A DNA stretch of 64,000 nt from a virus. Taxonomy: Duplodnaviria > Heunggongvirae > Uroviricota > Caudoviricetes. The DNA lies in IMG/VR virus record IMGVR_UViG_3300006033_000017. One strand, given 5' to 3'. The position numbers were made by a program, and so were the translations under genes. Of this stretch, positions 1,360-61,880 are shown one piece after another (the stretch's first letter is position 1; every line of letters starts with the position of its first letter). The notes beneath the pieces were generated by a model. It saw only the letters and a program-made list of their open reading frames with translations, ran no database searches and was not told the DNA's origin.

Positions 1360-1881
1360 TTATAGAAAGACAGACTTCACATAGTCCATTACGGTAGTCG
1401 GCAACGCTACTTCTAGGTATTCAATTTCTTCCGCATTCGGGTTGGGGCGTTTCACTAGTTGGCGGATCTTTGTGGAAGAATAGCTGAACCGTGAGGGCAA
1501 CAGAATAGTAGGCAACCCACATCGTGCCCTATTGAAATCGGCAATCTTACGTTCGTATTCATAATCTTCGCTATTACGAACGCCGCGCACCAAAGCATTG
1601 ACGCCGCATTGTACCGCGACATCAACGGTGTATCCCTCATAGGAGAAGACATCATAAATCGAGTCTGATGGGCAATCCGCGAGAATATCCCACCACAGAT
1701 TAATCGTGGTTTCAAAACTCAGTAGTCGTTGCGGCTTCTCTGCATTGACGCCAATACCAACAATGACTTCGGCACCCATTTGCAAACATTGATTCACAAG
1801 GTCAAGATGCCCCTTATGAGGGGGATCGAAAGTGCCAGCATAAAACAGTTTCATTTCAACTCTTCCAGGGATTGTTGTCAA
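1360..1881 (-). CDS. phosphopantetheine adenylyltransferase-like cytidylyltransferase (CoaD-like)
   Basis: N-terminal GTFDPPHKGH (T/HxGH nucleotidyltransferase motif). RGVRNSEDYEYE matches the CoaD RGLRxxxDFEYE signature. C-terminal YSSTKIRQ matches the ISSTxVRE motif. Confidence 0.6.
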   Translation of the reverse strand: MTTIPGRVEMKLFYAGTFDPPHKGHLDLVNQCLQMGAEVIVGIGVNAEKPQRLLSFETTINLWWDILADCPSDSIYDVFSYEGYTVDVAVQCGVNALVRGVRNSEDYEYERKIADFNRARCGLPTILLPSRFSYSSTKIRQLVKRPNPNAEEIEYLEVALPTTVMDYVKSVFL

Positions 1882-2461
1882 ACAATGACGTAAGGGTATC
1901 TACCAAGAGATTAAACTGACTCAACTGATTCTCCAAGTCATCCAAGACAAAACAAGGCATACGGAATCGCTTTAAGCCTTCCTTACTTAGCCCATAGATT
2001 GTCTTGTGGCTTTCAAACTGCATCCCTAGAATCTTCTGTTGGAAAGGGATTGTGCCATCATTGGGGTTAGCGTGCTTTTCTACCTTCAGGCGACCCAATT
2101 CTGCGCTAAGAGGGGCCATCGCGCGGTTACATTGATCACAAATAGATTCAAGGTCTCGAATCAACCCCTCATGTTCTGCCATCAGATGCTCCCGGCGAGC
2201 AACCAGGGGCTTCTGCTGTTTCTTGGCTAACTTACGCTCCTGTTGGAATTGATCAATGTAAGACCATGGGATTACGAAAGGCTCCGAACATACCTCATGA
2301 ACACCATAAGACTTAATGTAATTCGCGCCATCAACAGTAAATCCAACAAATCGATAAGAAACGTTCGAGTCCGAAAGTTGATACGCCCTCCGTACTTCAT
2401 CCATATCCAATTTGTCGTGCAGTTGTTCAATTCTAGCCTGTAGTTTCGTTACTCGCATCAT
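1856..2461 (-). CDS. hypothetical protein (201 aa)
   Basis: ORF; start overlaps upstream stop; no motif. Confidence 0.45.
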   Translation of the reverse strand: MMRVTKLQARIEQLHDKLDMDEVRRAYQLSDSNVSYRFVGFTVDGANYIKSYGVHEVCSEPFVIPWSYIDQFQQERKLAKKQQKPLVARREHLMAEHEGLIRDLESICDQCNRAMAPLSAELGRLKVEKHANPNDGTIPFQQKILGMQFESHKTIYGLSKEGLKRFRMPCFVLDDLENQLSQFNLLVDTLTSLFDNNPWKS

Positions 2462-21182: not shown

Positions 21183-22022
21183 TTAGCGGCGCGAGCTACT
21201 AGACGAACTAGAACTGGATCGACTACTAGAGCTACTAAAGCTACTAGAGCTACCGAAACTTCCTGAAGAAGATCGCCCACTAGAGCTAAAGCCACTCGAT
21301 CCACCGAAACTACCACTACTGCGGCTAGGACTTGAGCCGCCAAAGCTACCACTACTCCGACTAGAGCTTGAGCCACTCCAACTACTACTTGGACGACTAG
21401 AGCTTGAGCCAAAAGACCCCTTGGAACTCGCTGCCGAACTTCCGCTATTGAAAGAGCCTCTCGACTTACTAAAAGATCCACCTGAAGTGGGCCTTGAGCC
21501 TGAGAAGCTACTACCAGTTCGTGCCTCGGGTACAGAAGGAACAGTCGTACTCTTTGATCCAAAAGAACCACTAGATGTACTAGGCGTACCGAAACTGCCC
21601 TTTGCCGGTGGGCGAGTGGTCCTTACTTCAGCAGCAGTAGCAGTACGAACAGCAGGCCGACTAGTTACCGCAACATATGGCTTACTATATCCCGGTGGGT
21701 TAGCATGATAGTAATACGAGTAATGCGACGTAGTATAGTAACGACCACGATAAGCACCACCGTAAGGATTAGCCATCCACCAAGAATAGGTCGGGAAGTA
21801 ATCATCATCGATAATCACAACCGGGGCCGGAGCAGCCGCCATGTATTCAGGTCCGACAGGTTGAACCGCCATTCCATTATGGCGACTGTGGATATCCCCC
21901 GCCACACCAACAACAATCGTACCAACAATTGCCAGCATCGCAATGACAACCAGCATCTCAATCAGGGTAAAGCCCTTCTTACGCATCTTCTGTTTCCTTT
22001 TCTTTGATTTCACCAAGTACAT
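21183..22022 (-). CDS. type IV prepilin-like protein with a Tyr-rich region and a long Ser/Gly/Arg-rich repetitive tail
   Basis: KKGFTLIEMLVVIAMLAIVGTIVVG matches the class III prepilin cleavage/methylation signal (G|FTLIE); then (SGSFGSSS)n low-complexity repeats. Confidence 0.6.
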   Translation of the reverse strand: MYLVKSKKRKQKMRKKGFTLIEMLVVIAMLAIVGTIVVGVAGDIHSRHNGMAVQPVGPEYMAAAPAPVVIIDDDYFPTYSWWMANPYGGAYRGRYYTTSHYSYYYHANPPGYSKPYVAVTSRPAVRTATAAEVRTTRPPAKGSFGTPSTSSGSFGSKSTTVPSVPEARTGSSFSGSRPTSGGSFSKSRGSFNSGSSAASSKGSFGSSSSRPSSSWSGSSSSRSSGSFGGSSPSRSSGSFGGSSGFSSSGRSSSGSFGSSSSFSSSSSRSSSSSSSSSRR

Positions 22023-27488: not shown

Positions 27489-27707
27489 TTACCACTCATC
27501 ACGGTGCTCCTGTAATACCTTGATTGCTAACTTGCATCTCTGAATTGCTTCGGTAATAACCTCATCGGTCGCTTCTTCACGATACTTGTGTAGGACTGAG
27601 GCAACACAACCCTTTAACTCGGCTTCACCTATCTTGTAGAGGGAACGAGTTCCCATCGGTGCTAATTCTTGCATCATATAATACGCAAGCTTCATTGATG
27701 TCATCAT
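27489..27707 (-). CDS. hypothetical protein (72 aa)
   Basis: ORF overlapping the Thg1-like gene stop. Confidence 0.35.
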   Translation of the reverse strand: MMTSMKLAYYMMQELAPMGTRSLYKIGEAELKGCVASVLHKYREEATDEVITEAIQRCKLAIKVLQEHRDEW

Positions 27708-28471
27708 ACTTCTGCCTTCAGAATTGGCTCCGCGCCACGGAATACAACATCTTCCCTATTCGCGATGCGAGTCATAATAGGAATTGATAGTTGATGATAT
27801 TCTGAGCGTTGATATGTTTCACCAGTATCAGCTTTAGTGTGAAAAACTGGTACCTTCCTGAAATACGCACCACGCTTCAAGTGATCCGCATAATCATTCC
27901 AGTTAATGCCCTTCTGAAAGATCATCTCCTGAAGAGCATCGCATTTCTTGCCCTGCAACGCAGAGTGACTATAGAGACTCTGCGCAACCATCAAGATACT
28001 GTTGCGAACCGCATCGACTTCACGCCAGATCAAGGCGTTAGTGGCTTCATATTCAGTTGGGACGCTCCATACACGGCAATCAAACAAAGGGTTCAAATGC
28101 GCTTTCTTGGGAAGATAGGTCGGCAGTTGCTTGTTAAAGAAAACCGACGCCATACTTGCTAACAAAGAAGTCATCTTGGCAACACGACCATCAAAGAAGA
28201 TCTTGCGCTCAAAATCATCCTGTTGCCAAATTAGCGTAATTTCATCAGATTGTGTGTAAGAAATAACAGCATGAGTTTCTTTCACAAGATACTTAGCCGT
28301 TTCATGCATCAATTGCCGCAAATCATCATCAAATGGGCGCGCAAGGCCGCGACAAAATGAGTGAAATGCCTTACCATCTAGACGTGCCATGGCGGGCGCG
28401 AGCGGCATGAGTCGCGCTTGCGGGCCACAGTACAGGTTCTCATAGTATTTCATTCTATCCGACAGATCCAT
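27704..28471 (-). CDS. Thg1-like protein (tRNA-His guanylyltransferase family; 3'-5' nucleotidyltransferase)
   Basis: MARLDGKAFHSF ... ISYTQSDEITLIW aligns to the Thg1 catalytic core RLDGRNFHRF / AYGQSDEYSF; colinear similarity over the whole length. Confidence 0.8.
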   Translation of the reverse strand: MDLSDRMKYYENLYCGPQARLMPLAPAMARLDGKAFHSFCRGLARPFDDDLRQLMHETAKYLVKETHAVISYTQSDEITLIWQQDDFERKIFFDGRVAKMTSLLASMASVFFNKQLPTYLPKKAHLNPLFDCRVWSVPTEYEATNALIWREVDAVRNSILMVAQSLYSHSALQGKKCDALQEMIFQKGINWNDYADHLKRGAYFRKVPVFHTKADTGETYQRSEYHQLSIPIMTRIANREDVVFRGAEPILKAEV

Positions 28472-34645: not shown

Positions 34646-35845
34646 CTAAGCATTTTGCAATGTCTCGAATATCCGCGAATCTATAGGTTTGAAACCGGCA
34701 CCGTAAGGTCCGGTAAGGAATCGATTCAAAATATTCTTACTCGCGTTTGTATCCGCATTGTCTCCATGACCACAACTGAGACACAAGAACACCTCTCCGT
34801 TTCGATTCCTCTTATCGACATGACCACATAGCGGACAGGTGATACTGGTATTATAACACGAAACGGTTCTGAAGGAAACACGGTTTTCTTCACACCCCAT
34901 TTGTACCCGGTCTAACCAATATCGCCATACCCAACTGCCGATAACTCGACGCATACTTTTAGAGAGGCGTCGTCTCTCCTTTGCCTTATGGTTCAGATTA
35001 GATAACTTCTCCACAACCACAAGATCAATACTTTTATTAGTTACGATCTGCCTCGTAACTTCGTCTATTCGTTGTTTCAAGGCCCTACGAGCTTTCTTTT
35101 GGCCTTTCGATCCCTGATTACAACGATTGACTCTGTTCACACAATCTTTAATATCTCTACCTAATTGCTCTCCAGTAGAGAATGAAGCCAAAGCATTAAT
35201 CCCAGAGTCTATACCGATAGCATTGAGCCCCGTTTTCTTTGGACCAGTTTCAATCTCGAAACAGAACTGAACACTATCTCTGGTGATAATGTAGCTATTC
35301 AGTCTTGTTCCCAATTGATTCCATTTGTTGAAATGCTTGTGTTTTTTAATCGGAAGATCCATCACAATCTTATTGCCAATTGAAGCTAGATGCAACCAAG
35401 AATCAAATTCTGATGCTGCCTTTGAAGCCACTAACTTAGCAATGTTACAATTGGCGCAAATTCTATCTCCTTTGTGTGTCGGCTTAACGGGCTTGATTGT
35501 TTCTGCTTTTTGTCTTAATTGATTGGCCTTAACTTCGTATTTAGCTCTTTCTGCTTTGGCTAATAATCGTTTTTTCTCATTTTTGGCTTTCTCTTGAGAA
35601 GAATTAATCAGATCAATAGCTTCTCTTGCACAGACCTTTCTCATTCTATGAGAAAACCAAGAATCAGGGAGGTTGATTATATCTTTGAGCAAGTCTGCTT
35701 TTGTCGGGCATTTATCTAGTGCCCAGAAAGAATCAATGAAGATATTGCAGAGTCTTCCGTATTCGATCAACACAATGCTAAGCTCCTCTCTCTTTTTTAA
35801 GGTCGAGAATTTAAGGGTACATTGTGTTGACCGAATGATTTTCAC
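34646..35845 (-). CDS. tnpB: TnpB (IS605 OrfB-family RuvC-like, putative RNA-guided nuclease)
   Basis: RuvC-I GIDSGINALA, RuvC-II VVVEKLSN, zinc finger CPLCGH...CLSCGH, RuvC-III DNADTNASKNI; N-terminus MKIIRSTQCTLKF is typical. Confidence 0.8.
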   Translation of the reverse strand: MKIIRSTQCTLKFSTLKKREELSIVLIEYGRLCNIFIDSFWALDKCPTKADLLKDIINLPDSWFSHRMRKVCAREAIDLINSSQEKAKNEKKRLLAKAERAKYEVKANQLRQKAETIKPVKPTHKGDRICANCNIAKLVASKAASEFDSWLHLASIGNKIVMDLPIKKHKHFNKWNQLGTRLNSYIITRDSVQFCFEIETGPKKTGLNAIGIDSGINALASFSTGEQLGRDIKDCVNRVNRCNQGSKGQKKARRALKQRIDEVTRQIVTNKSIDLVVVEKLSNLNHKAKERRRLSKSMRRVIGSWVWRYWLDRVQMGCEENRVSFRTVSCYNTSITCPLCGHVDKRNRNGEVFLCLSCGHGDNADTNASKNILNRFLTGPYGAGFKPIDSRIFETLQNA

Positions 35846-38753: not shown

Positions 38754-39350
38754 TTGAGAGTAATGATTGACCTCGCTGCCCTTACAACGATAAACCATCA
38801 GACTAACCCCATTATAGCACGACCGCAGCCGTTTGTTAAATCGCTTGACAACCCAATCACCCCATGGTATAATGATGATATGAAACCCATAAATCCAGTA
38901 TATGCGGCTCGTTTCGATGAAGCCAAATACTTACTAGAAAAACATCACGACCTATTTAGCGCTATTGTCTCTATTTCTGATAGAGAAGATGAGTTAATGC
39001 CACAAGCATTAACCCAAGACACCTATTGTCTGCGTCTAATCTTCACTGATACTGATGGTCGTCAACCTGACATAGCTATGTCTCTAGAACAAGCACAAGC
39101 TCTATATGATGCACTACCGACTATCACACAAGGAACAGGCACAATCCTGGTTCATTGCTCCGCAGGCTTGTGTCGCTCACCTGCGATTGCATATGTGATT
39201 ATGGCGTACCAATTCGGCCCCGGCAATGAAGCTCAAGCATACGCAGAGCTTTCTAAATTGAATCCTGTGATGCTACCTAACCAATGGGTGCTTAGTCAGT
39301 GCGAGAAGGTGATGCCGGGTTTTAAGTTACTACCAATTCTTAACAAATAA
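38754..39350 (+). CDS. Cys-based protein phosphatase (tyrosine/dual-specificity type)
   Basis: HCSAGLCRS = CX5R(S/T) P-loop. Confidence 0.6.
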   Translation: MRVMIDLAALTTINHQTNPIIARPQPFVKSLDNPITPWYNDDMKPINPVYAARFDEAKYLLEKHHDLFSAIVSISDREDELMPQALTQDTYCLRLIFTDTDGRQPDIAMSLEQAQALYDALPTITQGTGTILVHCSAGLCRSPAIAYVIMAYQFGPGNEAQAYAELSKLNPVMLPNQWVLSQCEKVMPGFKLLPILNK

Positions 39351-51273: not shown

Positions 51274-51689
51274 CTCGTAATTGGCCCACCACGCATGGGT
51301 TTATTGAATAAATCAAGTAGCCATGAGCATTTATAGGTATTGTTAGCTTGGCAAATGACTCGTTCCGCAAAATACCAAGACCATAGCTCTAGGTCGTAAT
51401 ATGCCGTTCCGCCATTAGGATGAAGGCAAATACCGATATCTGGCTGCGTAAATATCTTGCATTTGATACAATTTACGGTATCATCTTCATTCACTTTTAA
51501 CTCAACATCCACACAACAGTACCGTTCTTGAAGTAGCAGGCCACCATCTTTAATGCCCTGATTGATTTCGAATAGAATTTTGCAATTCGACCCAAAGTGA
51601 GCGTTACCATTAAGAAAGGTAGCCACTTCAGCGGCGATAACTCTTGCCTTCTTTAATCTTGCTTCATAATCTACCATATCAGTCACCAT
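51270..51689 (-). CDS. hypothetical Cys-rich protein (139 aa)
   Basis: ORF. Confidence 0.4.
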   Translation of the reverse strand: MVTDMVDYEARLKKARVIAAEVATFLNGNAHFGSNCKILFEINQGIKDGGLLLQERYCCVDVELKVNEDDTVNCIKCKIFTQPDIGICLHPNGGTAYYDLELWSWYFAERVICQANNTYKCSWLLDLFNKPMRGGPITS

Positions 51690-52248
51690 ATAGATTGTTA
51701 TCTAAAATATAGTGCATAAGCTCAGGACATTCATGATACATCAAGGCTGCCTTGAGTCTATCATTCTCTAGGGGTGGAATCTCAGTCTTAAACTGTTCTC
51801 TAATCCATGTACTATGCTCACCAATATCGGGCACGGAGAAGATATTCACGGAAGCACACAATCGCTCCGCACGAAACCAGTGTTGTAGATTAAACAATGT
51901 ATCAGAACCAATAATTAGAACTAGATTATCCCTACTAAGATTCTCATGGATGTGATAGTGTTGCACCAAGTCATAGGTGTTCTGAATATCAAAATCCCTC
52001 TCCACACTATTAACAAAAGCCCGAGCATGACAACATTTGTGTAAGAGATTAGTCATATGAAATCGGTGTTCATATGACACATTAGAGGTTTTCAATGGTT
52101 GCCTATTTGTTGGCGTAATACCAATCGAAAAATCACTGGAACGCTTACCATAGCCATTAAATGCAGCAGCAGCAGTATGTAATGCTCTAAGATGACCAAG
52201 ATGTGGTGGGTCAAACATTCCGCCATAAAGCCCAAAACTAACCATCAC
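51679..52248 (-). CDS. nicotinate/nicotinamide mononucleotide adenylyltransferase-like (NadD/NMNAT family)
   Basis: GGMFDPPHLGH (GxFxPxHxGH) and C-terminal HSTWIRE (SxTxxR) motifs. Confidence 0.6.
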   Translation of the reverse strand: MMVSFGLYGGMFDPPHLGHLRALHTAAAAFNGYGKRSSDFSIGITPTNRQPLKTSNVSYEHRFHMTNLLHKCCHARAFVNSVERDFDIQNTYDLVQHYHIHENLSRDNLVLIIGSDTLFNLQHWFRAERLCASVNIFSVPDIGEHSTWIREQFKTEIPPLENDRLKAALMYHECPELMHYILDNNLYGD

Positions 52249-54231: not shown

Positions 54232-55103
54232 TATCTCGTACCTCTAAGTTGATCGATCTTATCCCGCGCGGCATCGACGGTTTTCTTGGCTTCTTCCATT
54301 AGACTAATAGCATCTGCCATGTAATTATAGAAAGCACAGCGTGCCTCTTTAGCATATCCTGCATGGATGTCAATGATGTTAAAAGCCAGATTGCCAGCCA
54401 ACAAAGGCAGAACTGAGTGCGTAGATACAATCACTTGACATTGTTCTGCCAATGTCGGAATGAAGTTCTGCCAGAACTTCGTTTGTAGCGGCACCTCAAA
54501 CCAATTATCAGGCTCATCCAATAGTACCGTAACTTTACCAGTAGAGTTGAGACTCTTGATGTAGTCAACCTGATCTTGAATTTTGTGTTGACCAACAGGC
54601 TCTTTATACTTGGCTAGCATATCTTCCCAAACGATGGGTTTCTCAATAGCAGCATTCAACCTCGCGAGTCGATATAGGTTGATTTGACCCTCACTCATTT
54701 GATTGGCGTTAACCTGATCCACCATACCGGAAACGCCATCAAGAGAGCCATTGTCGCTATCCATGAAGTAGCCAACATGCTTGATGTTGATTGTTCCATC
54801 ATAGAAGAAGGTAGGCGTACCGTCCCAATCAATTTCAGCAATACAACCATGAGATGCCTTTCGCTCAAGCATTTCGGCGACTGTATTACCACGATGAGGA
54901 GTCAAAGAGCCCCAGCCTGCCTCATTCACAGAAACATCAATGAAGCATCGAGCAGCCATCATCTTTAGGAGGGTCGTTTTACCACAACCATTAGGTCCCC
55001 ATAGGATATTAGGCATTGAAGTAGAGAACTCAATCACCCGACCATCTTTCAGATCAGGTAGCTCGGCGGCGTATCCAGAAATTGTCTTAACAGATCGAAT
55101 CAT
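54231..55103 (-). CDS. compact ABC-type ATPase (AAA_21/RecF-like)
   Basis: Walker A GPNGCGKTTLL, signature-like MSEGQ, Walker B VLLDEPD, H-loop STHS. Confidence 0.7.
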   Translation of the reverse strand: MIRSVKTISGYAAELPDLKDGRVIEFSTSMPNILWGPNGCGKTTLLKMMAARCFIDVSVNEAGWGSLTPHRGNTVAEMLERKASHGCIAEIDWDGTPTFFYDGTINIKHVGYFMDSDNGSLDGVSGMVDQVNANQMSEGQINLYRLARLNAAIEKPIVWEDMLAKYKEPVGQHKIQDQVDYIKSLNSTGKVTVLLDEPDNWFEVPLQTKFWQNFIPTLAEQCQVIVSTHSVLPLLAGNLAFNIIDIHAGYAKEARCAFYNYMADAISLMEEAKKTVDAARDKIDQLRGTR

Positions 55104-55555
55104 TAGTCAATTCCTAGCGCATCAACAGCATGAAACATGGAAGCAATAGAGTCGTGTTCTATACCAGCTATCTGTAAGGCTCGGCTAACACCTAATCGGT
55201 AGCTTGCCATTAAGCTCCCGACGACAGGAGCCCCGGCACCATTAACCGCTCGCAAGAACTTGTAATGCTCTAGATGTGCATTTGCTAAGTCGGCAATCAA
55301 ATCTTCGGACAACTCTTTTGATGCTCCGTTCTCAGCAATGCTTAATGCCTCTTTGAGTGAACAATCATCTTTATGCCCCGTATGATGTCGCCAGCAGTCC
55401 CAGCCCTTTGATGCAAGCAACTTGTATTGCTCAGGCATAGCGCCCTGGCAAACGGGGCAGCAAGGAATGTTCGTGCCAAAATCTTCTTCGGGCGACCAAA
55501 CGTCGCCACTACCAGACCATTCTAGTTCATGTAGAATAGCAGCTAAAGGTGTCAT
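55103..55555 (-). CDS. hypothetical Cys/His-rich protein (150 aa) translationally coupled to the ATPase (possible degenerate HNH/zinc-finger)
   Basis: CCPVCQG ... WDCWRHHTGHKDDC; ATGA overlap. Confidence 0.4.
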   Translation of the reverse strand: MTPLAAILHELEWSGSGDVWSPEEDFGTNIPCCPVCQGAMPEQYKLLASKGWDCWRHHTGHKDDCSLKEALSIAENGASKELSEDLIADLANAHLEHYKFLRAVNGAGAPVVGSLMASYRLGVSRALQIAGIEHDSIASMFHAVDALGID

Positions 55556-55785
55556 ACTGATTTCCCTGCTAGGAAAGCATCAATGCCCCGTTCAACAGCA
55601 TCCATATCATCTTTATGTACAGACAAAATAGAGAGTGTGTGATTCATACTGATGCGATGGGCAGCCATCAATTTATCGCGAAGCTCAAGATCACTCTTAC
55701 ATTCGAAGCTACACTCTTTGTACCACATCATGTAATTCTGAACGAGCTTTTCCATCTCAAGTTGAGTCAGGCGCGTCATAGTCAT
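55552..55785 (-). CDS. hypothetical protein (77 aa), first gene of the ATPase operon
   Basis: ATGA overlap with the next gene. Confidence 0.35.
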   Translation of the reverse strand: MTMTRLTQLEMEKLVQNYMMWYKECSFECKSDLELRDKLMAAHRISMNHTLSILSVHKDDMDAVERGIDAFLAGKSV

Positions 55786-55979
55786 TCCTTATCTATCCAA
55801 ATATCGGTTAGCTAGGCATGGATATCACTAGAGCCATTATAGGCTTTGGCAGCAATAGCATAGCCTCACTACTTCTTTAGTCATGAAGCGCAGATGTGCT
55901 AGCATCACTTCTATGGGCGCGCTTATACTAAAGAAATGCCCTCAGGTAAAAGAGCACTCGCACCTAGCCAACCAAACTT

Positions 55980-56291
55980 TTACTCACCAATATCCCTATA
56001 ATGGCAACAGAAGGATTTGGGTTCAGCAACTTTAACGAACAACTCGGGGTGGAGCACCACCATATGATCAAGGAACTCGGACGGATGTTGATATATGCCT
56101 TTATTGGCTTTCCAAGTAGCATATAGCGGCTTAAACATCCTCCCCAACTCTTCGTCGGAGATATCCGTCAGCACTTCAAGATACCCTAAGCTTTGCGGCG
56201 CACGCATAGCTTGAGCAATGTGAAGATTAATGATCCTCATTAGCAATACTCCTCGATCCAGGCATAGCCTTCGCGAGTGATAATGATCCAC
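55980..56291 (-). CDS. hypothetical protein (103 aa)
   Basis: ORF. Confidence 0.4.
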   Translation of the reverse strand: MDHYHSRRLCLDRGVLLMRIINLHIAQAMRAPQSLGYLEVLTDISDEELGRMFKPLYATWKANKGIYQHPSEFLDHMVVLHPELFVKVAEPKSFCCHYRDIGE

Positions 56292-56737
56292 ATAATGGCA
56301 TCATCACTAACAAATTCAACCAGCCCGTAATCTTCTAGAACTTCAAGCGCACCATGTACCAAGTATTCGGGGCCATCACAATGACAGATCAAATCACCCT
56401 CAGTAAGATCGCCACCAAAAGCCTTTAGGGTCCGCATTGTATCGCGAGCAATCCCGTTGAGTAGCTTGCCCATAAAGGCATTAACATCGAAAGCAAGCTC
56501 CCGAGGACCAAGTTCCCAAGGGCCAACTTTCTTCGTACTAGTGTCTTTGAGTTCTTCTTCTTCAAGCCCTTCCTCTTCAAGCGCTTTTTCACCACGTACT
56601 ATTGCTTCGTCAATGATGATGCGCGCATTCTTATCCAGAGATTCCCAGGGGACATTCTCTTGAATAGTGTCGATGAGCTTAGCTAGACTTTCGGTAACTA
56701 ATCTACCCATGATACTCTCCGCTCTACTAACATTCAC
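56240..56737 (-). CDS. hypothetical acidic protein (165 aa)
   Basis: ORF. Confidence 0.4.
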   Translation of the reverse strand: MNVSRAESIMGRLVTESLAKLIDTIQENVPWESLDKNARIIIDEAIVRGEKALEEEGLEEEELKDTSTKKVGPWELGPRELAFDVNAFMGKLLNGIARDTMRTLKAFGGDLTEGDLICHCDGPEYLVHGALEVLEDYGLVEFVSDDAIMWIIITREGYAWIEEYC

Positions 56738-56958
56738 CGATCATAACTACTTTGATGAAGGAATAGATTGTAATCTTGAACAGATTCGTGGACTGTCCCT
56801 CTGTAAAGTGAGCCATAGTCCCGGTGGTGGAGACTATTAGAATCTTCGCATTCTGGATCAATGGTATAACCCGCTCGATTACGGCGGGGTTCTTCGCGGC
56901 GAAAAGATGTGTCATCTATCCAATTACTCATCATAGTTCCTTGACTACTATCCACCAT
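56734..56958 (-). CDS. hypothetical protein (74 aa)
   Basis: ATGA overlap with downstream gene. Confidence 0.3.
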   Translation of the reverse strand: MVDSSQGTMMSNWIDDTSFRREEPRRNRAGYTIDPECEDSNSLHHRDYGSLYRGTVHESVQDYNLFLHQSSYDR

Positions 56959-57154
56959 TGCGAAGTTTATACTCTACTGACTCAATTTCTCTTCGCAGGC
57001 GAGAGACTTCATTCTGATCAACACGCATCGGACTATGCCGTCGATACCTACCAACTTCTTCTCCGTGGTAGTAACTGGGATATTCACCATTATCAGTGTG
57101 TCGGGCCAACTCTTGCTTGAGTTGATATAGTTCTGCACGCAATTGTTCTGACAT
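56948..57154 (-). CDS. hypothetical coiled-coil protein (68 aa)
   Basis: ORF just downstream of the tRNA cluster. Confidence 0.35.
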   Translation of the reverse strand: MSEQLRAELYQLKQELARHTDNGEYPSYYHGEEVGRYRRHSPMRVDQNEVSRLRREIESVEYKLRNGG

Positions 57155-57185
57155 TCCAATTGTCCTTCCTGGTTTTTCTCAACTA

Positions 57186-57341
57186 AACGAGAGGGGAGAT
57201 TCGAACTCCCACCGGCGAATGGGCATTCGCCTTTTGCTGTTAATTACGTAGGGGCTTAGCTCAGCATTAGCCCTTCACAGCATTATTCTTCCTTGTATTT
57301 GCAACTACTCGGAAGAAGCTCTATCCAATAAGCTACTCTCG
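57186..57341 (-). tRNA. atypical tRNA-like gene, 156 nt between perfectly complementary acceptor strands (type II-like arm; discriminator U)
   Basis: 5' ACGAGAG-UA-GCUU-AUUGGAUA-GAGC (acceptor, U8, D-arm) and 3' GGGAG-UUCGAAU-CUCCC-CUCUCGU (T-arm, acceptor); GGCGAAUgcccAUUCGCC hairpin in the variable position; no canonical anticodon arm found. Confidence 0.45.
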
Positions 57342-57399
57342 TCCTTTTGAAAGAGCGGGCTCCAATAGTGAGCCTTCTATCTTTCAAACTTGCTCTAGA

Positions 57400-57698
57400 T
57401 GCCCCTGTCTGGAGTTGAACCAGCGTCACCCGGTTATGCTTACCACTATAGTTTTCACTACCAAACAAGTTGTTTGTGGTCTGGACTCTCTCTTCACCAT
57501 AGATTATTATCTTTAGGTGTTCCGTGTTGAGTCTCTACACCTTGCAACTTTCGTTGCCTTGGCTCGGGATTGCCATTTCACAGGGTTCCCCGAATTTACG
57601 GAATAATCACAGCAATAGTTTCCTATTGCCGCGCCCTCTTTTGTGCTTCTAAAGCACGTTAGCGAAGCCGGACGCTCTAACCATTGAGCTACAGGGGC
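57400..57698 (-). tRNA. tRNA with anticodon CAU (Met or Ile-lysidine type) interrupted by a 227-nt group I intron in the anticodon loop
   Basis: 5' exon GCCCCUG-UA-GCUC-AAUGGUUA-GAGC-G-UCCGG-CU (57666..57698) and 3' exon CAUAA-CCGGG-UGAC-GCUGG-UUCAACU-CCAGA-CAGGGGC-A (57400..57438); all stems pair; intron ends in G. Confidence 0.7.
57439..57665 (-). ncRNA. group I self-splicing intron (IC3-like, Azoarcus / cyanobacterial tRNA-intron type)
   Basis: AAAUUCGGGGAACCCUG ... GGCAAUCCCGAGCCAAGG ... GGUGUAGAGACUCAACACGGAACACCUAAAG ... CUAUGG ... GAGAGUCC closely match the conserved P3-P8 core of the Azoarcus tRNA-Ile and Anabaena tRNA-Leu introns. Confidence 0.65.
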
Positions 57699-57777: not shown

Positions 57778-57806
57778 ATTATAGCATGGCGGGCCGCGCA
57801 TGTCAA
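57778..57806 (-). promoter_or_regulatory. sigma70-like promoter TTGACA-N17-TgcTATAAT + AAGGGTATG driving the tRNA cluster
   Basis: minus-strand gcTTGACAtgcgcggcccgccatgcTATAATaagggta; leader hairpin GGGAAGG-n9-CCTTCCC at 57741..57763. Confidence 0.55.
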
Positions 57807-58749: not shown

Positions 58750-59193
58750 TCAAGCCTCAGATTCCGGTATCGCCAATTCACATAATTCTTTATGCTGCTT
58801 ACGGGTCATTTTGTGGGTAAGCGCAAACTCACACCAAACCTGCATAGCTGAAATCAGATTTGGTGTTGGATTTGCCACGAAACGCCTCATAAGCTCTTTC
58901 CTATCAGGGGTTTCGATCATTTCGTGAACATCTCGGGGCTCGAAATCTAGACGAAGACTCCCACCATCATAGGGATCAAATGTCCCATATGCAGGCTCAC
59001 AATACTTATAGGACTTATGGAACTTAGCGGGGCCTCGATAGTTACTGTAATCGATCCAGTACCATTTGCCCTTTTCTAGTGTTACACCTTTATGATTAGT
59101 CATTATACTATCTTTCTTGTTTAGTACAATACCACTTACCGTCGGAAGCAGCATATGCACCGGGCTCCATACCACCTTCGGCTCGAAATTCAC
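58750..59193 (-). CDS. hypothetical protein (147 aa)
   Basis: ORF. Confidence 0.4.
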   Translation of the reverse strand: MNFEPKVVWSPVHMLLPTVSGIVLNKKDSIMTNHKGVTLEKGKWYWIDYSNYRGPAKFHKSYKYCEPAYGTFDPYDGGSLRLDFEPRDVHEMIETPDRKELMRRFVANPTPNLISAMQVWCEFALTHKMTRKQHKELCELAIPESEA

Positions 59194-59545
59194 CTGCTGT
59201 TACATGGCAACAGCATTCTTGCCAAAGAGGACATGATTCAATAGGTATATTGCAGCATAGACCTTCATAGTCAGTAGTAGGCTCCCCCCAAGTGGGGATT
59301 GCTTCACCTATTTCTAAAGCGACCCGAAGCCCCCGATTATTCTGTTGTTGATCTGCTAGATCGTTAAAGATCTTAGCTATATTCCTCAAATGATTCGGCA
59401 TACACCCCTTGATATTTATCGAATGACCAAGGGACCGAAAGAACATCACAAGCTGATCTTGATGTGTGTCTTCACTATGCTCAACAAAGACACGAACAAC
59501 CTCATCACCTATTTGAATCTGTTCCACTATTTTAGGCGTCTTCAT
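59108..59545 (-). CDS. hypothetical Cys-rich protein (145 aa)
   Basis: ORF. Confidence 0.4.
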   Translation of the reverse strand: MKTPKIVEQIQIGDEVVRVFVEHSEDTHQDQLVMFFRSLGHSINIKGCMPNHLRNIAKIFNDLADQQQNNRGLRVALEIGEAIPTWGEPTTDYEGLCCNIPIESCPLWQECCCHVTAGEFRAEGGMEPGAYAASDGKWYCTKQER

Positions 59546-59547
59546 CT

Positions 59548-59898
59548 TTACTCCACAGTCAATAGGTTAGCGGGAAGCCGATCTACTTTTCGGGCGCGCG
59601 GTGGCTTACAACACATGCGAGACGCCTCAGTATAAAGCAATCGCCGAGCGCACACCTGAGTCAAATAATAGTCCAAAGAATAGCCTAAATCTGGGTTATA
59701 AGTTCCCAGTCCACGCTGTACCGCAAGCTTGGCTAGCGTCATTTTCTCATCTATTGTATAAGATGGAACTGTGGTCTTTCTACACAATGCTTCTAGCGCA
59801 TCATTAAATACAGGTAGAATTTCAGAGAATGTCATCATTAACTCCTTAACGTTATCTAACACCATATTTGCGCATCTTAAGTTGATGCTCGTATTCAT
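59548..59898 (-). CDS. hypothetical protein (116 aa)
   Basis: ORF. Confidence 0.4.
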   Translation of the reverse strand: MNTSINLRCANMVLDNVKELMMTFSEILPVFNDALEALCRKTTVPSYTIDEKMTLAKLAVQRGLGTYNPDLGYSLDYYLTQVCARRLLYTEASRMCCKPPRARKVDRLPANLLTVE

Positions 59899-60024
59899 TG
59901 AAAGCCTTCGTACATTGCTGACTAGCTAGTCGTTCATTGGGGGAGCAGACTTCGATCCGCTTCCCATCCCATGCCGTCAACACACAAACTGTTTGTTTCA
60001 CGCCATCTCTTGTCGTTTGGTAGG

Positions 60025-60249
60025 TTAGCATTTCACTATATCCAGGTACTCATATGGATACCAAGTTTGCTTATCACCGAGGCATCTCACGAAGACACAA
60101 AGATCATCGTCTTCATCATAGCAATCCTCTTGAATTGCCACGACTTCTGTAACATTATCTGCACACAATAGCATTGCTTTACCGGGCAGCATTTGGTTGA
60201 CTTTAACTTTTGAAGCTACTGATAACGTCTTTGCTTCTTCCAATGTCAT
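60025..60249 (-). CDS. hypothetical protein (74 aa)
   Basis: ORF. Confidence 0.3.
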   Translation of the reverse strand: MTLEEAKTLSVASKVKVNQMLPGKAMLLCADNVTEVVAIQEDCYDEDDDLCVFVRCLGDKQTWYPYEYLDIVKC

Positions 60250-60503
60250 TATTCGTCCCCGCGTTTAATGACTTTGAGATCCCCCAAGCTACTAAGCCAT
60301 ACATCTATGTCGTGCAACACCTTGTACTCGACATCACTGTACTTGCAAAGAATCGTACCGACATTAGCAGGAAAAACCTCGATTACTTCGACAGTTATAG
60401 TCTTACCTTTAACGTATCTTCCCTCAGTTCCCTCAATGATATCGCCCGCTACAGGATCAGTTAGTGGGTTTCTTTGCTCGTTCAGTTCCATTATGATACC
60501 CAA
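60249..60503 (-). CDS. hypothetical protein (84 aa)
   Basis: ORF. Confidence 0.3.
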   Translation of the reverse strand: MGIIMELNEQRNPLTDPVAGDIIEGTEGRYVKGKTITVEVIEVFPANVGTILCKYSDVEYKVLHDIDVWLSSLGDLKVIKRGDE

Positions 60504-60745
60504 CCTACCTCAAGTAGAGCCATTTGATCTTTTACGCGAGAAGCCCAATCATTTTCCAAAGCTGCAATTACCTGTTCAGGCTTACCACCCAATACCTCCT
60601 TACATCCTCGGGCTCTCCCTCGCCAACCACCACTCTGATATACTAAGCCATCAATTTCGTTGCAAGAATAGTAATAGTTATGCCAATCGTCTTCTTCGCT
60701 ATTGTCGCCCTCCCGCCAAAGGAAGCGTCCCTGGATATCAGCCAT
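60491..60745 (-). CDS. hypothetical protein (84 aa)
   Basis: ORF. Confidence 0.3.
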   Translation of the reverse strand: MADIQGRFLWREGDNSEEDDWHNYYYSCNEIDGLVYQSGGWRGRARGCKEVLGGKPEQVIAALENDWASRVKDQMALLEVGWVS

Positions 60746-61076
60746 TTTGTAATACCTCTAACTCATTCTGTAACCTGCGAACCTTCGCAATGAGTTCGGG
60801 CATAGCTACTTTAGCGGTAGCGATGAATTCTGCATTGCGACGACGACGTTCATTACTAGCTCGAACTATAGTTTCGTCATTGAGTTCATGAAGATCTTCG
60901 GGATGACAAATATAGTGAGGAGCAACGCCGAGATGATCCCAGAATTCTGCTAGTCTAGATTCGTCAGCCCTGCTTTGGACGCAAACAGTGCCTGACTGAT
61001 AAATCTCTACCACCCAGGGACCGGGTGTTGTGTCATTGCAAATAGTCTCTAGTTCTTCTAGTCGTTTAGCTTCCAT
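60738..61076 (-). CDS. hypothetical protein, 'TPGPW...PELI..RRLQ' family (paralog A)
   Basis: LEELETICNDTTPGPW ... AMPELIAKVRRLQ. Confidence 0.4.
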   Translation of the reverse strand: MEAKRLEELETICNDTTPGPWVVEIYQSGTVCVQSRADESRLAEFWDHLGVAPHYICHPEDLHELNDETIVRASNERRRRNAEFIATAKVAMPELIAKVRRLQNELEVLQNG

Positions 61077-61461
61077 GTAACAACTTATCCGTTTCTACAA
61101 TCATAGCTTGCCCAAGATAGAGCTTCTGAAGACGACGTATCTCTTTGATTAGCTCAGGGACAGCAGTTCTGGCTGCCGAGATGAATTTAGCATCGTTCTC
61201 GGCTTGGAGTGTCGCCGCTCCTTGTTGTTGCTCGAATCTCTCCCACTCATCGTCATCATAAGAAGTTAGATAATCAGCATTGTTGAAGCTTGGACCAATA
61301 GAAGCGACACACATTGAATCGCCTAATTCGCCCCAGCCAACTGTAGCAGGCGCACCGCCTTCACCCCATCTATCAAGAACCCAAGGATCAGGTGTAGCCT
61401 TATTGCATAACTCTTCTAGTTCAGCTAATCTATCAGCTAATATCATAGCTTCTCCAATCAA
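61066..61461 (-). CDS. hypothetical protein, same family (paralog B)
   Basis: LAELEELCNKATPDPW ... AVPELIKEIRRLQ. Confidence 0.4.
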   Translation of the reverse strand: MIGEAMILADRLAELEELCNKATPDPWVLDRWGEGGAPATVGWGELGDSMCVASIGPSFNNADYLTSYDDDEWERFEQQQGAATLQAENDAKFISAARTAVPELIKEIRRLQKLYLGQAMIVETDKLLHGS

Positions 61462-61880
61462 GGATATATGATAATGTCCCTAACGATGTCTTGTTCGTCT
61501 AGCATTATGGTGGCGGCATTATAACGCCCATCGCACCAATGCCCCTGCATAGGTTTGTAGATCCTAATATTGGTGACACCGATACCTCCTACCAATACGC
61601 CCCACAACGCCGTCGATAATGGCTTACCTAAGTGTTCTTTTGCGCTAAAACTCATGCAACCGCGTACTGTCAACTTAATTCGCTCATGATTATTGCCCAT
61701 GAACCGTTCCCACTGAGGATTAGCTATGGTTGTCTCGTATTCCTCAAAAGCCAAACGAGTTTCTTCGGGCATACCTTCCTTGCCACCATAAATCGCCCAA
61801 CCTAACTTGAGATCTTTAGGGTCGTCAGCAGGTAGTGTAGTCGTAGTGATTTCCATTATGGTTTCTCGAATCTTTCCCAT
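61458..61880 (-). CDS. hypothetical protein (140 aa)
   Basis: ORF. Confidence 0.4.
   Translation of the reverse strand: MGKIRETIMEITTTTLPADDPKDLKLGWAIYGGKEGMPEETRLAFEEYETTIANPQWERFMGNNHERIKLTVRGCMSFSAKEHLGKPLSTALWGVLVGGIGVTNIRIYKPMQGHWCDGRYNAATIMLDEQDIVRDIIIYP

What the first reader, a model, noticed from the sequence alone, without database searches (positions are those of the whole stretch)
57186..57341. Second, atypical tRNA-like gene with a 156-nt body
ACGAGAG (5') and CUCUCGU (3') are perfectly complementary acceptor strands. They flank a canonical U8-D-arm (GCUU-AUUGGAUA-GAGC) and a canonical T-arm (GGGAG-UUCGAAU-CUCCC), plus a 7-bp variable-arm-like hairpin. About 75 extra nucleotides sit where the anticodon arm should be, and I could not fold a 5-bp/7-nt anticodon stem-loop there. 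That region instead holds an extended hairpin UCUUCC/GGAAGA with an 18-nt loop. This could be a second intron of unusual type, a tRNA-like decoy or regulatory RNA, or a disrupted pseudogene. It is co-transcribed with the intron-tRNA from the strong promoter at 57778-57806.
Basis: seen in the sequence. Interest (0 to 1): 0.6.

Follow-up and report, generated by a model that had tools for sequence, protein, structure and literature searches.

The report
Phage tRNA-shaped RNA that cannot decode
A large uncultured phage carries a conserved gene for a 157-base RNA with the top half and elbow of a tRNA, but a rod-like hairpin and two extra arms where the anticodon loop should be, so it is most likely a tRNA mimic rather than a working tRNA; its function is unknown.

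Summary
It has a perfect 7-bp acceptor stem, a canonical D-arm and a canonical T-arm. Three hairpins sit between D-arm and T-arm: H1 (30 nt), H2 (48 nt) and H3 (7 bp).

The minimum-free-energy fold reproduces this six-helix junction (z = -4.1). ARAGORN in default mode and Rfam do not call it a tRNA.

One syntenic relative exists (L001). Outside H2 the two RNAs differ at 2 of 118 positions, against 7-12% at third codon positions of the flanking genes. Both differences are structure-neutral. H2 is replaced wholesale but remains a hairpin.

No single excision gives a canonical anticodon arm. ARAGORN's intron-mode solutions disagree between the two relatives. Unusual intron and pseudogene are therefore disfavoured.

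Best reading: a selected, non-decoding tRNA-like RNA. It is co-transcribed with an intron-containing tRNA(CAU) from a consensus promoter and presumably matured by tRNA-processing enzymes. I infer that it acts as a tRNA mimic or decoy; this is not shown.

The closest analogue is T4 species 1 RNA (rnaC). The same phage also encodes a Thg1-like tRNA 5'-end repair enzyme. Only two variants are known, so there is no covariation support.

The parts
57778..57806 (-). Consensus sigma-70 promoter (TTGACA, 17-nt spacer, TATAAT, with TG) that drives the operon
   Evidence: 12 of 12 hexamer matches. The same promoter is present in L001.
57400..57698 (-). Upstream tRNA(CAU) interrupted by a 227-nt group I intron (57665..57439). 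It is the co-transcribed neighbour, not part of the tRNA-like RNA.
   Evidence: Rfam Intron_gpI, 60.2 bits, E = 8.6e-13. ARAGORN -i calls tRNA-Met(cat) with an intron at position 33/34.
57346..57388 (-). Conserved spacer hairpin between the two RNA genes: a 9-bp stem UUUGAAAGA/UCUUUCAAA with an inner GGCUC/GAGCC hairpin. It forms the 5' leader of the tRNA-like RNA.
   Evidence: Fold at -16.1 kcal/mol, z = -1.9. Almost identical in L001 apart from the apical loop.
57186..57342 (-). The whole tRNA-like RNA: a 156-nt body plus the discriminator U at 57186. No CCA is encoded.
   Evidence: Sequence, fold, identical copies in L005, L006 and L018, homologue in L001.
57336..57342 (-). Acceptor 5' strand ACGAGAG
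   Evidence: Pairs perfectly with 57193..57187 in both relatives.
57318..57333 (-). D-arm GCUU-AUUGGAUA-GAGC, preceded by U8 and A9
   Evidence: One U/C difference at a variable D-loop position in L001.
57287..57316 (-). H1, a rod-like hairpin in the anticodon-arm position: 6 bp (UCUUCC/GGAAGA), a GA/AA internal loop, 3 bp (GUA/UAC) and an 8-nt apex GUUGCAAA. The apex is near-palindromic.
   Evidence: An A-to-G change in L001 keeps the pair (U-A becomes U.G).
57235..57282 (-). H2, the hypervariable extra arm: a UGCUGU/ACAGCA stem enclosing a GGGCU...AGCCC inner hairpin and an A/U-rich 3' strand
   Evidence: Fold. In L001 it is replaced by unrelated sequence with a UGCAAGC/GCUUGCA stem; only the basal UGC/GCA and a GGGC motif are shared.
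57214..57231 (-). H3, a constant 7-bp arm resembling a variable arm: GGCGAAU-GCCC-AUUCGCC
   Evidence: Identical in L001.
57194..57210 (-). T-arm GGGAG-UUCGAAU-CUCCC
   Evidence: The only canonical T-arm in the window. The T-arm plus acceptor 3' strand is identical over 24 nt to tRNA-Leu genes in L002 and L003.
57187..57193 (-). Acceptor 3' strand CUCUCGU
57152..57170 (-). Ribosome-binding site AGGAAGGA and ATG of the next ORF (68 aa), 31 nt after the RNA. The only terminator-like call in between is the RNA's own T-arm, so the RNA lies in a polycistronic transcript.
   Evidence: The gene is called in L005.

Best explanation
This is a real, selectively maintained gene for a tRNA-shaped non-coding RNA of about 157 nt that cannot decode.

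Shown:
- It keeps what the tRNA maturation machinery and tRNA-binding proteins read: a 7-bp acceptor stacked on a 5-bp T-stem, a UUCGAAU T-loop, a D-loop with GG, U8-A14, and A9 with the U12-A23 pair.
- The 7-nt anticodon loop is replaced by a helical extension (H1, about 11 stacked layers).
- Two further arms sit in the variable region: H2, which has been swapped between close relatives, and H3, which is constant.

Inferred:
- It is transcribed from the consensus promoter at 57806..57778 together with the intron-containing tRNA(CAU).
- RNase P cuts 5' of A57342.
- It is trimmed and CCA-tailed after U57186, which also frees the downstream mRNA.
- It accumulates as a stable L-shaped RNA.

Most likely mechanism (inferred, not shown): it acts as a tRNA mimic. 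It would occupy a protein that recognises the tRNA elbow or variable region, most plausibly a host tRNA-targeting defence nuclease or toxin, or a tRNA enzyme. It would titrate that protein without taking part in translation. H2 would be either the arms-race surface or a tolerated cargo arm.
For: - Structure: the minimum-free-energy fold equals the centroid and has all six helices, z = -4.09 in the window and -3.30 in L001. All 35 scored pairs are formed in both relatives.
- Selection: outside H2, 2 of 118 nt differ, against third-codon-position divergence of 7.2% and 12.1% in the two flanking ORFs. P = 0.008 to 4e-4. Both changes are structure-neutral: a variable D-loop position, and U-A to U.G.
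- H2 differs entirely in sequence yet is a hairpin with the same basal UGC/GCA in both relatives.
- The RNA is identical in three independent datasets.
- Not a decoder: ARAGORN default gives nothing. Rfam tRNA gives no hit at E<=10 in the window, and 16.7 bits against a threshold of 29 in L001.
- Operon context: a 12/12 promoter, no terminator apart from a false-positive call on the T-arm, and the next ORF 31 nt downstream.
- Precedents: T4 species 1 RNA is annotated as a small stable RNA in the T4 tRNA cluster. It folds with an acceptor-like stem and a canonical T-arm plus extra hairpins.
[quoted passage not shown] Overexpressed phage tRNA-Tyr rescues infection and partly suppresses host tRNA degradation (PMC13096335).
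- The same phage encodes an apparently active Thg1-like tRNA 5'-end repair enzyme, so it invests in tRNA integrity.
Against: - Only two sequence variants exist in all collections searched, so there is no compensatory covariation.
- The structure rests on thermodynamic prediction plus tRNA-motif matches.
- There are no expression, processing or binding data.
- No defence system or partner protein is identified. All ten ORFs scanned around the RNA (55103-57154 downstream and 58750-61880 upstream), and the 292-aa gene immediately upstream, have no Pfam or PHROG match.
- The Thg1-like gene is 29 kb away, so any link is conjecture.
- The lower divergence could partly reflect a recent recombination tract rather than selection.
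- A pure processing or punctuation role would also explain retention of the acceptor/T module.
Confidence: 0.45

Rival explanations
1. It is a cis-acting processing and stability element ('tRNA punctuation'). The tRNA-like fold exists mainly so that RNase P and the 3'-end tRNA nucleases cut the polycistronic transcript. This separates tRNA(CAU) from the downstream mRNA and defines that mRNA's 5' end. The excised RNA has no function in trans.
For: The RNA sits between a tRNA and protein-coding genes, with the only terminator-like call being its own T-arm. The next ribosome-binding site is 16 nt after the discriminator and the ATG 31 nt after it. The arrangement is the same in L001. A conserved leader hairpin lies immediately 5'.
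Against: An acceptor/T minihelix is enough for RNase P and 3' processing. It would not explain near-perfect conservation of H1 (30 nt), H3 (18 nt), the D-arm and the linkers. The downstream gene differs between the relatives: the window has an extra 470 nt carrying two small ORFs. The RNA is therefore not tied to one mRNA.
Confidence: 0.2
2. It is a chargeable tRNA-like RNA used outside normal decoding. It would be aminoacylated through acceptor-end determinants alone (U73, C2:G71, G3:C70, long extra arm), or have its 5' end remodelled by the phage Thg1-like enzyme. It would then serve as an aminoacyl donor, a primer or an enzyme substrate.
For: The acceptor/T/D core is intact. Several synthetases (Ala, Ser, Leu) do not need the anticodon (established knowledge). 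The phage encodes a Thg1-like protein with conserved catalytic DG and SDE motifs. Irregular tRNA-like RNAs charged non-canonically are discussed in PMC5389517.
Against: The acceptor end matches no known identity set: A1:U72 with U73; not G3:U70; not A73 with Leu-type tertiary features; not G73 with Ser features. This comparison comes from established identity rules and was not tested. No transferase or synthetase gene was found in the window.
Confidence: 0.12
3. It is a genuine class II tRNA gene carrying an unconventional short intron or insert. An unknown activity removes this to give a decoding tRNA.
For: ARAGORN with introns allowed reports a tRNA over exactly this span. The T-arm plus acceptor 3' strand is identical over 24 nt to real tRNA-Leu genes. 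The neighbouring tRNA does contain an intron.
Against: The ARAGORN solutions differ between relatives: Leu(UAA) with a 67-nt intron versus Ala(UGC) with a 64-nt intron. Each has only 3 of 5 anticodon-stem pairs and non-purine or odd loop positions, and cuts through stable hairpins. The insert is far too short for a group I or group II intron, and Rfam finds none. The only single excision that leaves a 7-nt loop on the UCUUC/GAAGA stem gives anticodon ACA, requires a 13-nt intron of no known type, and would still leave H2 in the variable region (from the sequence). The promoter and Shine-Dalgarno signals are bacterial, and bacteria are not known to have a bulge-helix-bulge splicing endonuclease (established knowledge).
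Confidence: 0.07
4. It is a decaying tRNA pseudogene or recombination scar with no function.
For: It has no anticodon loop. The region is mosaic: H2 and the upstream tRNA and intron are replaced between relatives, and there are insertions on both sides.
Against: Divergence outside H2 is 1.7%, against 7-12% at third codon positions nearby. All 35 helix pairs are intact in both relatives and both substitutions are structure-neutral. It lies directly behind a perfect promoter within an operon.
Confidence: 0.08

Closest known systems
Bacteriophage T4 species 1 RNA (rnaC, AF158101 70908-71046) and species 2 RNA (rnaD)
   Same: It is phage-encoded, lies inside the tRNA transcription unit and is about 140 nt. 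It is annotated 'small, stable RNA'. It folds with an acceptor-like terminal stem and a canonical T-arm (CCGGG-UUCGAAU-CCCGG) plus long extra hairpins. It scores only below threshold against tRNA models (tRNA-Sec 17.5 bits versus 47). To my knowledge its function is still unknown.
   Different: There is no sequence similarity: the distant blastn against 50,697 phage records did not return T4. rnaC has no canonical D-arm, and its extra hairpins lie 5' of the tRNA-like part. The window RNA keeps a full D-arm/T-arm elbow and places three hairpins between the D- and T-arms.
Class II tRNAs (tRNA-Leu, Ser, Tyr) and irregular 'allo-tRNA-like' five-stem species (PMC5389517)
   Same: It has a long extra arm before the T-arm. 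The T-arm plus acceptor 3' strand is identical over 24 nt to tRNA-Leu genes of a bacterium and a phage (L002, L003). Irregular tRNAs with extra loops or five-stem junctions that fail in translation assays have been described.
   Different: There is no 7-nt anticodon loop. The discriminator is U73 with A1:U72, not the A73 of Leu. The D-arm is of class I type (4 bp, 8-nt loop). There are two arms in the variable region. It is not detected by ARAGORN in default mode or by Rfam.
Phage tRNAs used as counter-defence (T5/T6 tRNA-Tyr against retron-Eco7 and Septu; T5 tRNA against PARIS)
   Same: These are phage-encoded tRNA-shaped RNAs whose variable region matters for evading or titrating tRNA-cleaving immune nucleases (PMC13096335; PMC10802454, title and abstract).
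   Different: Those are functional decoding tRNAs that replace the cleaved host tRNAs. The window RNA cannot decode, so it could act only as a decoy or sponge. No cognate defence system is known for it.
tRNA-scaffolded or tRNA-mimicking non-coding RNAs (bacterial YrlA/Y-RNA tRNA-like module, tmRNA tRNA-like domain, MHV68 tRNA-like-plus-hairpin TMER RNAs, engineered tRNA scaffolds)
   Same: The concept is the same: a tRNA-like module gives processing, stability and protein recognition, while other arms carry the function. In engineered scaffolds the anticodon loop is replaced by a cargo helix, as H1 replaces it here (my own knowledge, not tested).
   Different: There is no Rfam hit to YrlA, tmRNA or any TLS family. 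ARAGORN's tmRNA mode is negative. In YrlA the RNA ends lie in the anticodon-side stem, whereas here they lie in the acceptor stem. No conserved tag reading frame exists: H2 of the window contains AUG-CUG-AGC-UAA, but L001 has no AUG there.
Group I intron-containing tRNA (the upstream neighbour at 57698..57400)
   Same: It is in the same operon, and both are interrupted at the anticodon region.
   Different: The neighbour has a bona fide group I intron (60.2 bits) and yields a canonical tRNA(CAU) after excision. The 85-nt region of the tRNA-like RNA has no intron signature and yields no canonical tRNA.

Membership tests
tRNA (Rfam RF00005 / ARAGORN) | 7-bp acceptor stem directly stacked on a 5-bp T-stem, with a UUCRANY T-loop and G53-C61 | tested here: met
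   ACGAGAG/CUCUCGU and GGGAG-UUCGAAU-CUCCC, contiguous.
tRNA (Rfam RF00005 / ARAGORN) | U8, and a D-arm with A14, G18, G19 and A21 | tested here: met
   UA-GCUU-AUUGGAUA-GAGC. The D-stem is paired in both relatives.
tRNA (Rfam RF00005 / ARAGORN) | 5-bp anticodon stem closing a 7-nt loop with U33 and a purine at position 37 | tested here: not met
   The anticodon position holds a 30-nt hairpin: 6 bp, a GA/AA internal loop, 3 bp and an 8-nt apex. No single excision restores a consistent loop.
tRNA (Rfam RF00005 / ARAGORN) | Score above the family threshold | tested here: not met
   ARAGORN default finds 0 genes. Rfam tRNA gives no hit at E<=10 in the window. In L001 it scores 16.7 bits against a gathering score of 29, and only over the 3' 77 nt.
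Intron-containing tRNA (group I or other known intron) | A recognisable intron whose removal gives the same canonical tRNA in related genomes | tested here: not met
   No Rfam intron or ribozyme hit in 57316..57232. ARAGORN -i gives Leu(UAA) in the window and Ala(UGC) in L001, each with 2 mismatches in 5 stem pairs.
tmRNA | tRNA-like domain plus a tag reading frame; detection by ARAGORN or Rfam | tested here: not met
   ARAGORN -m finds none. Rfam finds none. The mini-ORF in the window's H2 is absent from L001.
T4 species 1 RNA (rnaC) family | Sequence homology to T4 rnaC | tested here: not met
   Distant blastn of the locus against all phage records returned only group I intron matches. The folds share only the acceptor/T module.
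T4 species 1 RNA (rnaC) family | A stable RNA excised from a tRNA operon by tRNA-processing enzymes | not testable with these tools
   This needs RNA data. The operon context is compatible.
YrlA / bacterial Y RNA | A tRNA-like module joined to a Ro(Rsr)-binding stem formed by the RNA's ends, with an rsr gene nearby | tested here: inconclusive
   No Rfam hit. The RNA ends are in the acceptor stem, which is the wrong topology. No TROVE/Ro domain was found among about 65 of the 85 ORFs of >=110 aa scanned with Pfam, but not every ORF was scanned and only 85 kb of the 157-kb genome was seen.

The most novel reading that the evidence does not exclude
The RNA is a dedicated phage counter-defence molecule: a natural 'tRNA scaffold' decoy. 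Its intact elbow and acceptor end attract a tRNA-targeting immune nuclease or toxin. Its swappable arm (H2) is the arms-race surface. It works together with the phage's Thg1-like 3'-5' polymerase as a tRNA-protection and repair module. A variant of this reading is that the RNA is the specific substrate or template of that enzyme.
Probability: 0.15. Interest if true: 0.85.

Novelty: new variant of a known kind. Interest (0 to 1): 0.55.

Why it matters
Phage tRNA clusters have been known since the 1970s to encode tRNA-like stable RNAs of unexplained function, such as T4 species 1 and 2. Recent work shows that tRNAs, including their variable loops, are a major battleground between defence nucleases and phages.

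This RNA is a clean case of a tRNA body that has been kept under selection while its decoding loop has been removed. One arm has been swapped between near-identical phages, and the genome also encodes a Thg1-like tRNA 5'-end repair enzyme.

If it proves to be a decoy or an enzyme partner, it would define a new class of RNA-based counter-defence. It would also suggest a function for the old T4 RNAs.

It is also a practical warning. Default tRNA finders and Rfam miss such genes entirely.

Tried and rejected
**Search for more homologues**
- Eight viral-contig scans returned nothing. They used H1 loop patterns, H3 plus T-arm, a gapped degenerate pattern, T-arm plus acceptor, the two H2 cores, and two neighbouring proteins.
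- One genome-contig scan returned only L001.
- Two metagenome-contig scans were run. The first returned nothing. The second returned only ordinary tRNA-Leu genes.
- Megablast and blastn against the phage and plasmid collections found only group I intron similarity.
- Three protein searches, one exhaustive HMMER search and two cluster look-ups found only the window-type and L001-type phages.
- Contigs of distant ATPase and neighbour-protein homologues contain no tRNA-like gene.
- The metagenome scan is not exhaustive. JGI contig L018 carries the exact RNA yet was not returned.

**H2 as a guide or antisense RNA**
- No complementarity to the upstream pre-tRNA beyond shuffled controls.
- No 12-mer of the window's H2 occurs elsewhere in the window.

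**H1 loop as an antisense element**
- No target in the window.

**H1 apex as a tRNA-Cys anticodon-loop mimic**
- The apex contains UUGCAAA and the discriminator is U73. However, the loop is 8 nt on a 3-bp stem atop an 8-layer extension, and the match is not statistically meaningful. I rejected this as evidence.

**Other readings rejected**
- tmRNA, ribozyme, CRISPR-repeat mimic, attP fragment and DGR variable region. There is no Rfam hit, no template repeat and no integrase nearby, and the 5' acceptor and D-arm are complete.
- A gene on the plus strand. The reverse complement lacks the D-loop GG and puts the T-loop out of register.

**Syntax failure**
- Two adjacent variable gaps are not accepted by the DNA search.
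Full report
**1. What is there**

The feature is on the minus strand. The sequence runs from A57342 to U57187, followed by the discriminator U57186.

In order it reads:
- ACGAGAG, the acceptor 5' strand
- UA
- GCUU-AUUGGAUA-GAGC, the D-arm
- U
- UCUUCC-GA-GUA-GUUGCAAA-UAC-AA-GGAAGA, hairpin H1
- AUAA
- UGCUGU...ACAGCA, hairpin H2, 48 nt
- AAA
- GGCGAAU-GCCC-AUUCGCC, hairpin H3
- GGU
- GGGAG-UUCGAAU-CUCCC, the T-arm
- CUCUCGU, the acceptor 3' strand
- U

Everything else it listed is correct.

RNAfold gives a single dominant structure, with the minimum-free-energy fold equal to the centroid. It contains all six helices: -58.3 kcal/mol, z = -4.09, and none of 200 shuffles as stable.

This is the only canonical T-arm hairpin on either strand of the 64-kb window. 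A perfect 7-bp acceptor and a D-arm carrying U8, A9, A14, G18, G19 and A21 sit around it in exact tRNA register. This is not chance.

**2. What the standard tools say**

- ARAGORN in default mode finds no tRNA or tmRNA in the window.
- At gathering thresholds Rfam finds only a group I intron at 57662..57463 (60.2 bits). This intron lies inside a tRNA(CAU) gene at 57698..57400, just upstream.
- A permissive Rfam scan of the 1-kb region gives no tRNA, tmRNA, TLS, Y-RNA or ribozyme hit over the feature, even at E<=10.

**3. Genomic context**

The window is the first 64 kb of a 157,149-nt metagenomic contig, ena:ERZ27247451:k141_1195142.

The gene content is phage-like:
- an amidase endolysin and several PHROG families;
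- a DNA methylase, a dCMP deaminase, an HNH endonuclease and a TnpB-like gene.

A promoter matching the consensus 12 of 12, with an extended -10 TG, lies at 57806..57778. The only terminator-like call on that strand before the next ORF is the RNA's own T-arm, which I treat as a false positive. That ORF has its ribosome-binding site at 57170..57163 and its ATG at 57154.

The operon therefore reads: promoter, tRNA(CAU) with a group I intron, a conserved spacer hairpin (57388..57346), the tRNA-like RNA, then small ORFs. None of the ten flanking ORFs I scanned with Pfam and PHROGs (55103-57154 and 58750-61880), nor the 292-aa gene immediately upstream, matches any family.

These are the only two tRNA-type genes in the 64-kb window and in a further 21 kb of the same contig.

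**4. Relatives**

An extensive search found exact copies in two other datasets:
- Logan SRR5457253 (L006);
- JGI 3300027851 (L018).

It found only one divergent relative, L001. This is a 3.5-kb contig binned with an Omnitrophota MAG. It is syntenic with the window, and its flanks are 89-94% identical.

The search for further relatives covered DNA patterns, neighbouring proteins, cluster members and an exhaustive HMMER search. It is listed in full under "tried and rejected".

Alignment of the two RNAs shows the following.
- Outside H2, 2 of 118 positions differ.
  - One is a U/C change at a variable D-loop position.
  - The other is an A/G change that turns a U-A pair of H1 into U.G.
- The two flanking ORFs differ at 7.2% and 12.1% of third codon positions.
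- The probability of 2 or fewer differences in 118 sites is therefore 0.008 to 0.0004.
- H2 is replaced by unrelated sequence, yet it again forms a hairpin.
  - The stem is UGCAAGC/GCUUGCA in L001 and UGCUGU/ACAGCA in the window.
  - Only the basal UGC/GCA and a GGGC motif are shared.
- The upstream tRNA(CAU) is also swapped. It has different exon sequence and a different intron, which by my reading of the U/omega-G rule is inserted at a different position: after nucleotide 33 in the window and after the CAU anticodon in L001.
- The spacer hairpin is conserved.

With two sequences there is no covariation, and I do not claim any.

**5. Why it is not a tRNA with an intron**

The 5-bp stem UCUUC/GAAGA follows U26, exactly where an anticodon stem should be. 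It encloses 20 nt that extend the helix:
- the sixth pair, C-G;
- a GA/AA internal loop;
- 3 bp;
- an 8-nt near-palindromic apex.

The only single excision that leaves a 7-nt loop gives CU-ACA-AG. That would require a 13-nt intron of no known type, and it would still leave H2 in the variable region.

ARAGORN with introns allowed does report a tRNA over this exact span, but the solutions are forced and inconsistent. It calls Leu(UAA) with a 67-nt intron in the window and Ala(UGC) with a 64-nt intron in L001. Each has only 3 of 5 anticodon-stem pairs, and each cuts through H1 and H2.

The insert is too short for a group I or group II intron and has no Rfam signature.

**6. Why it is not a pseudogene**

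The conservation is above the local neutral proxy. All 35 scored pairs are intact in both relatives. Both substitutions are structure-neutral. The gene sits directly in a strongly promoted operon.

One caveat applies. A recent recombination tract could lower the divergence locally. The region is clearly mosaic, with insertions of about 255 nt in L001 and about 470 nt in the window.

**7. Origin**

The T-arm plus acceptor 3' strand (24 nt) is identical to real tRNA-Leu genes from a bacterium (L002) and from a phage tRNA cluster (L003). H3 occupies the variable-arm position. The 3' half therefore looks derived from a class II tRNA.

The D-arm is of class I type, and the discriminator is U73 with A1:U72. 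This combination matches no identity set that I know of. That statement rests on established identity rules and was not tested here.

**8. Mechanism**

What is shown:
- a conserved, thermodynamically favoured tRNA-shaped fold with an intact elbow and acceptor end;
- no decoding loop;
- one hypervariable arm;
- an operon position behind a consensus promoter.

What is inferred from general knowledge of tRNA maturation:
- RNase P cleavage 5' of A57342;
- 3' trimming and CCA addition after U57186;
- a stable L-shaped RNA as the product.

For function I commit to a tRNA mimic that engages a tRNA-recognising protein without decoding. The most plausible role is a decoy or sponge for a tRNA-targeting defence nuclease or toxin.

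Support for this is indirect.
- T4 species 1 RNA is a structural precedent.
[quoted passage not shown] Overexpressed phage tRNA-Tyr rescues infection and partly suppresses host tRNA degradation (PMC13096335).
- The phage carries a Thg1-like protein at 27704..28471. Pfam Thg1 gives E = 1.9e-29. The best solved relative is the Bacillus thuringiensis Thg1-like protein 4KGK (E = 9e-36), and the catalytic R-x-DG and SDE motifs are conserved.
- Bacterial members of that family repair 5'-truncated tRNAs by templated 3'-5' addition (established knowledge). This phage therefore appears to invest in tRNA integrity.

My confidence splits as follows:
- about 0.75 that this is a functional, non-decoding tRNA-like RNA;
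- about 0.25-0.3 that its role is specifically that of a decoy;
- 0.45 for the combined statement.

The main rival is a purely cis-acting processing or punctuation element (0.2). It does not explain the conservation of H1, H3 and the D-arm.

**9. Comparison with known families**

It works like T4 species 1 RNA and like tRNA-scaffolded or tRNA-mimicking RNAs, but it is not a sequence member of any of them.
- There is no blastn match to T4.
- There is no Rfam hit.

It fails the tRNA membership test on the anticodon arm and on score, while meeting it on the acceptor, D and T features.

I therefore classify it as a new variant of a known kind: phage-encoded tRNA-like stable RNA.

**10. Verdict**

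'Unusual intron' and 'pseudogene' are disfavoured.

Interest is moderate to high. The function is unknown and rests on two sequences. The anatomy is unusual, however. The swapped arm and the co-resident Thg1-like enzyme make it a concrete, testable candidate in the biology of phage-host conflict over tRNA.

Noticed in passing
window 27704..28471 (-): A 255-aa Thg1-like protein, belonging to the tRNA-His guanylyltransferase / 3'-5' RNA polymerase family. Pfam PF04446 gives E = 1.9e-29. The best solved relative is the B. thuringiensis Thg1-like protein 4KGK (E = 9e-36), and the catalytic DG and SDE motifs are conserved. A full-text search found no paper describing phage-encoded Thg1-like proteins. 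It may be linked to the tRNA / tRNA-like operon 29 kb away.
   Followed up: partly
window 57698..57400 (-) versus L001 1687..1373 (-): Both phages carry a tRNA(CAU) with a group I intron at the same locus. The exon bodies differ beyond the first 12 nt and the introns differ. By the U/omega-G rule the insertion sites also differ: after nt 33 in the window (227-nt intron), and after the CAU anticodon in L001. ARAGORN miscalls the L001 gene as tRNA-Arg(tcg).
   Followed up: partly
L001 about 1776..2031, and window 56711..57179: The two otherwise 89-94% identical phages are mosaic around the RNA. L001 has about 255 extra nt between the promoter and the tRNA leader. The window has about 470 extra nt carrying two small ORFs (68 and 65-74 aa) immediately downstream of the tRNA-like RNA.
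   Followed up: no
L006 position 1 (Logan SRR5457253_1422894): An independent 8.5-kb assembly of the same phage begins at nucleotide 3 of the tRNA-like acceptor stem. This could be an assembly break caused by strain variation upstream. If the run is RNA, it could be a processed 5' end. The nature of the run could not be checked.
   Followed up: no
window 57295..57308: The H1 apex GUAGUUGCAAAUAC is a near-perfect palindrome, with 2 mismatches to its own reverse complement. It could form a UGCA-tetraloop hairpin with a G.A mismatch, or mediate loop-loop dimerisation. The core UUGCAAA equals the usual tRNA-Cys anticodon-loop sequence (from memory, not checked here), which I judge to be coincidental.
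   Followed up: partly
window 57214..57231 and 57357..57375 (+): On the opposite strand, H3 and the spacer hairpin are each followed by T-rich tracts and score as terminator-like sites. They may block antisense transcription into the operon, or this may be coincidence.
   Followed up: no
window 34646..35845 (-): A TnpB / Cas12f-like transposon-associated nuclease gene (Pfam Cas12f1-like_TNB E = 3e-12; PHROG transposase) lies inside the phage genome. No omega-RNA was looked for.
   Followed up: no
window 21183..22022 (-); 1360..1881 (-) and 51679..52248 (-); 38754..39350 (+): Other gene content: a protein with a type IV pilin-like N-terminal methylation motif, two cytidylyltransferase-like proteins, and a dual-specificity-phosphatase-like protein.
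   Followed up: no
L003 1690..3470: An unrelated phage contig was pulled in by the T-arm pattern. It has a consensus promoter directly followed by a cluster of six tRNAs, including one that ARAGORN calls tRNA-Pyl(cta). That is an amber-suppressor-type tRNA.
   Followed up: no
Metagenome-contig scan versus L018: The JGI contig Ga0209066_10000337 carries the exact RNA. It was not returned by the metagenome contigs pattern scan, which it should match. Negative scans of that collection are therefore not proof of absence.
   Followed up: yes
L004 4909..5047 (-), T4 rnaC: T4 species 1 RNA gets a sub-threshold tRNA-Sec hit (17.5 bits). It too looks like a degenerate class II tRNA with a 5' extension.
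   Followed up: partly
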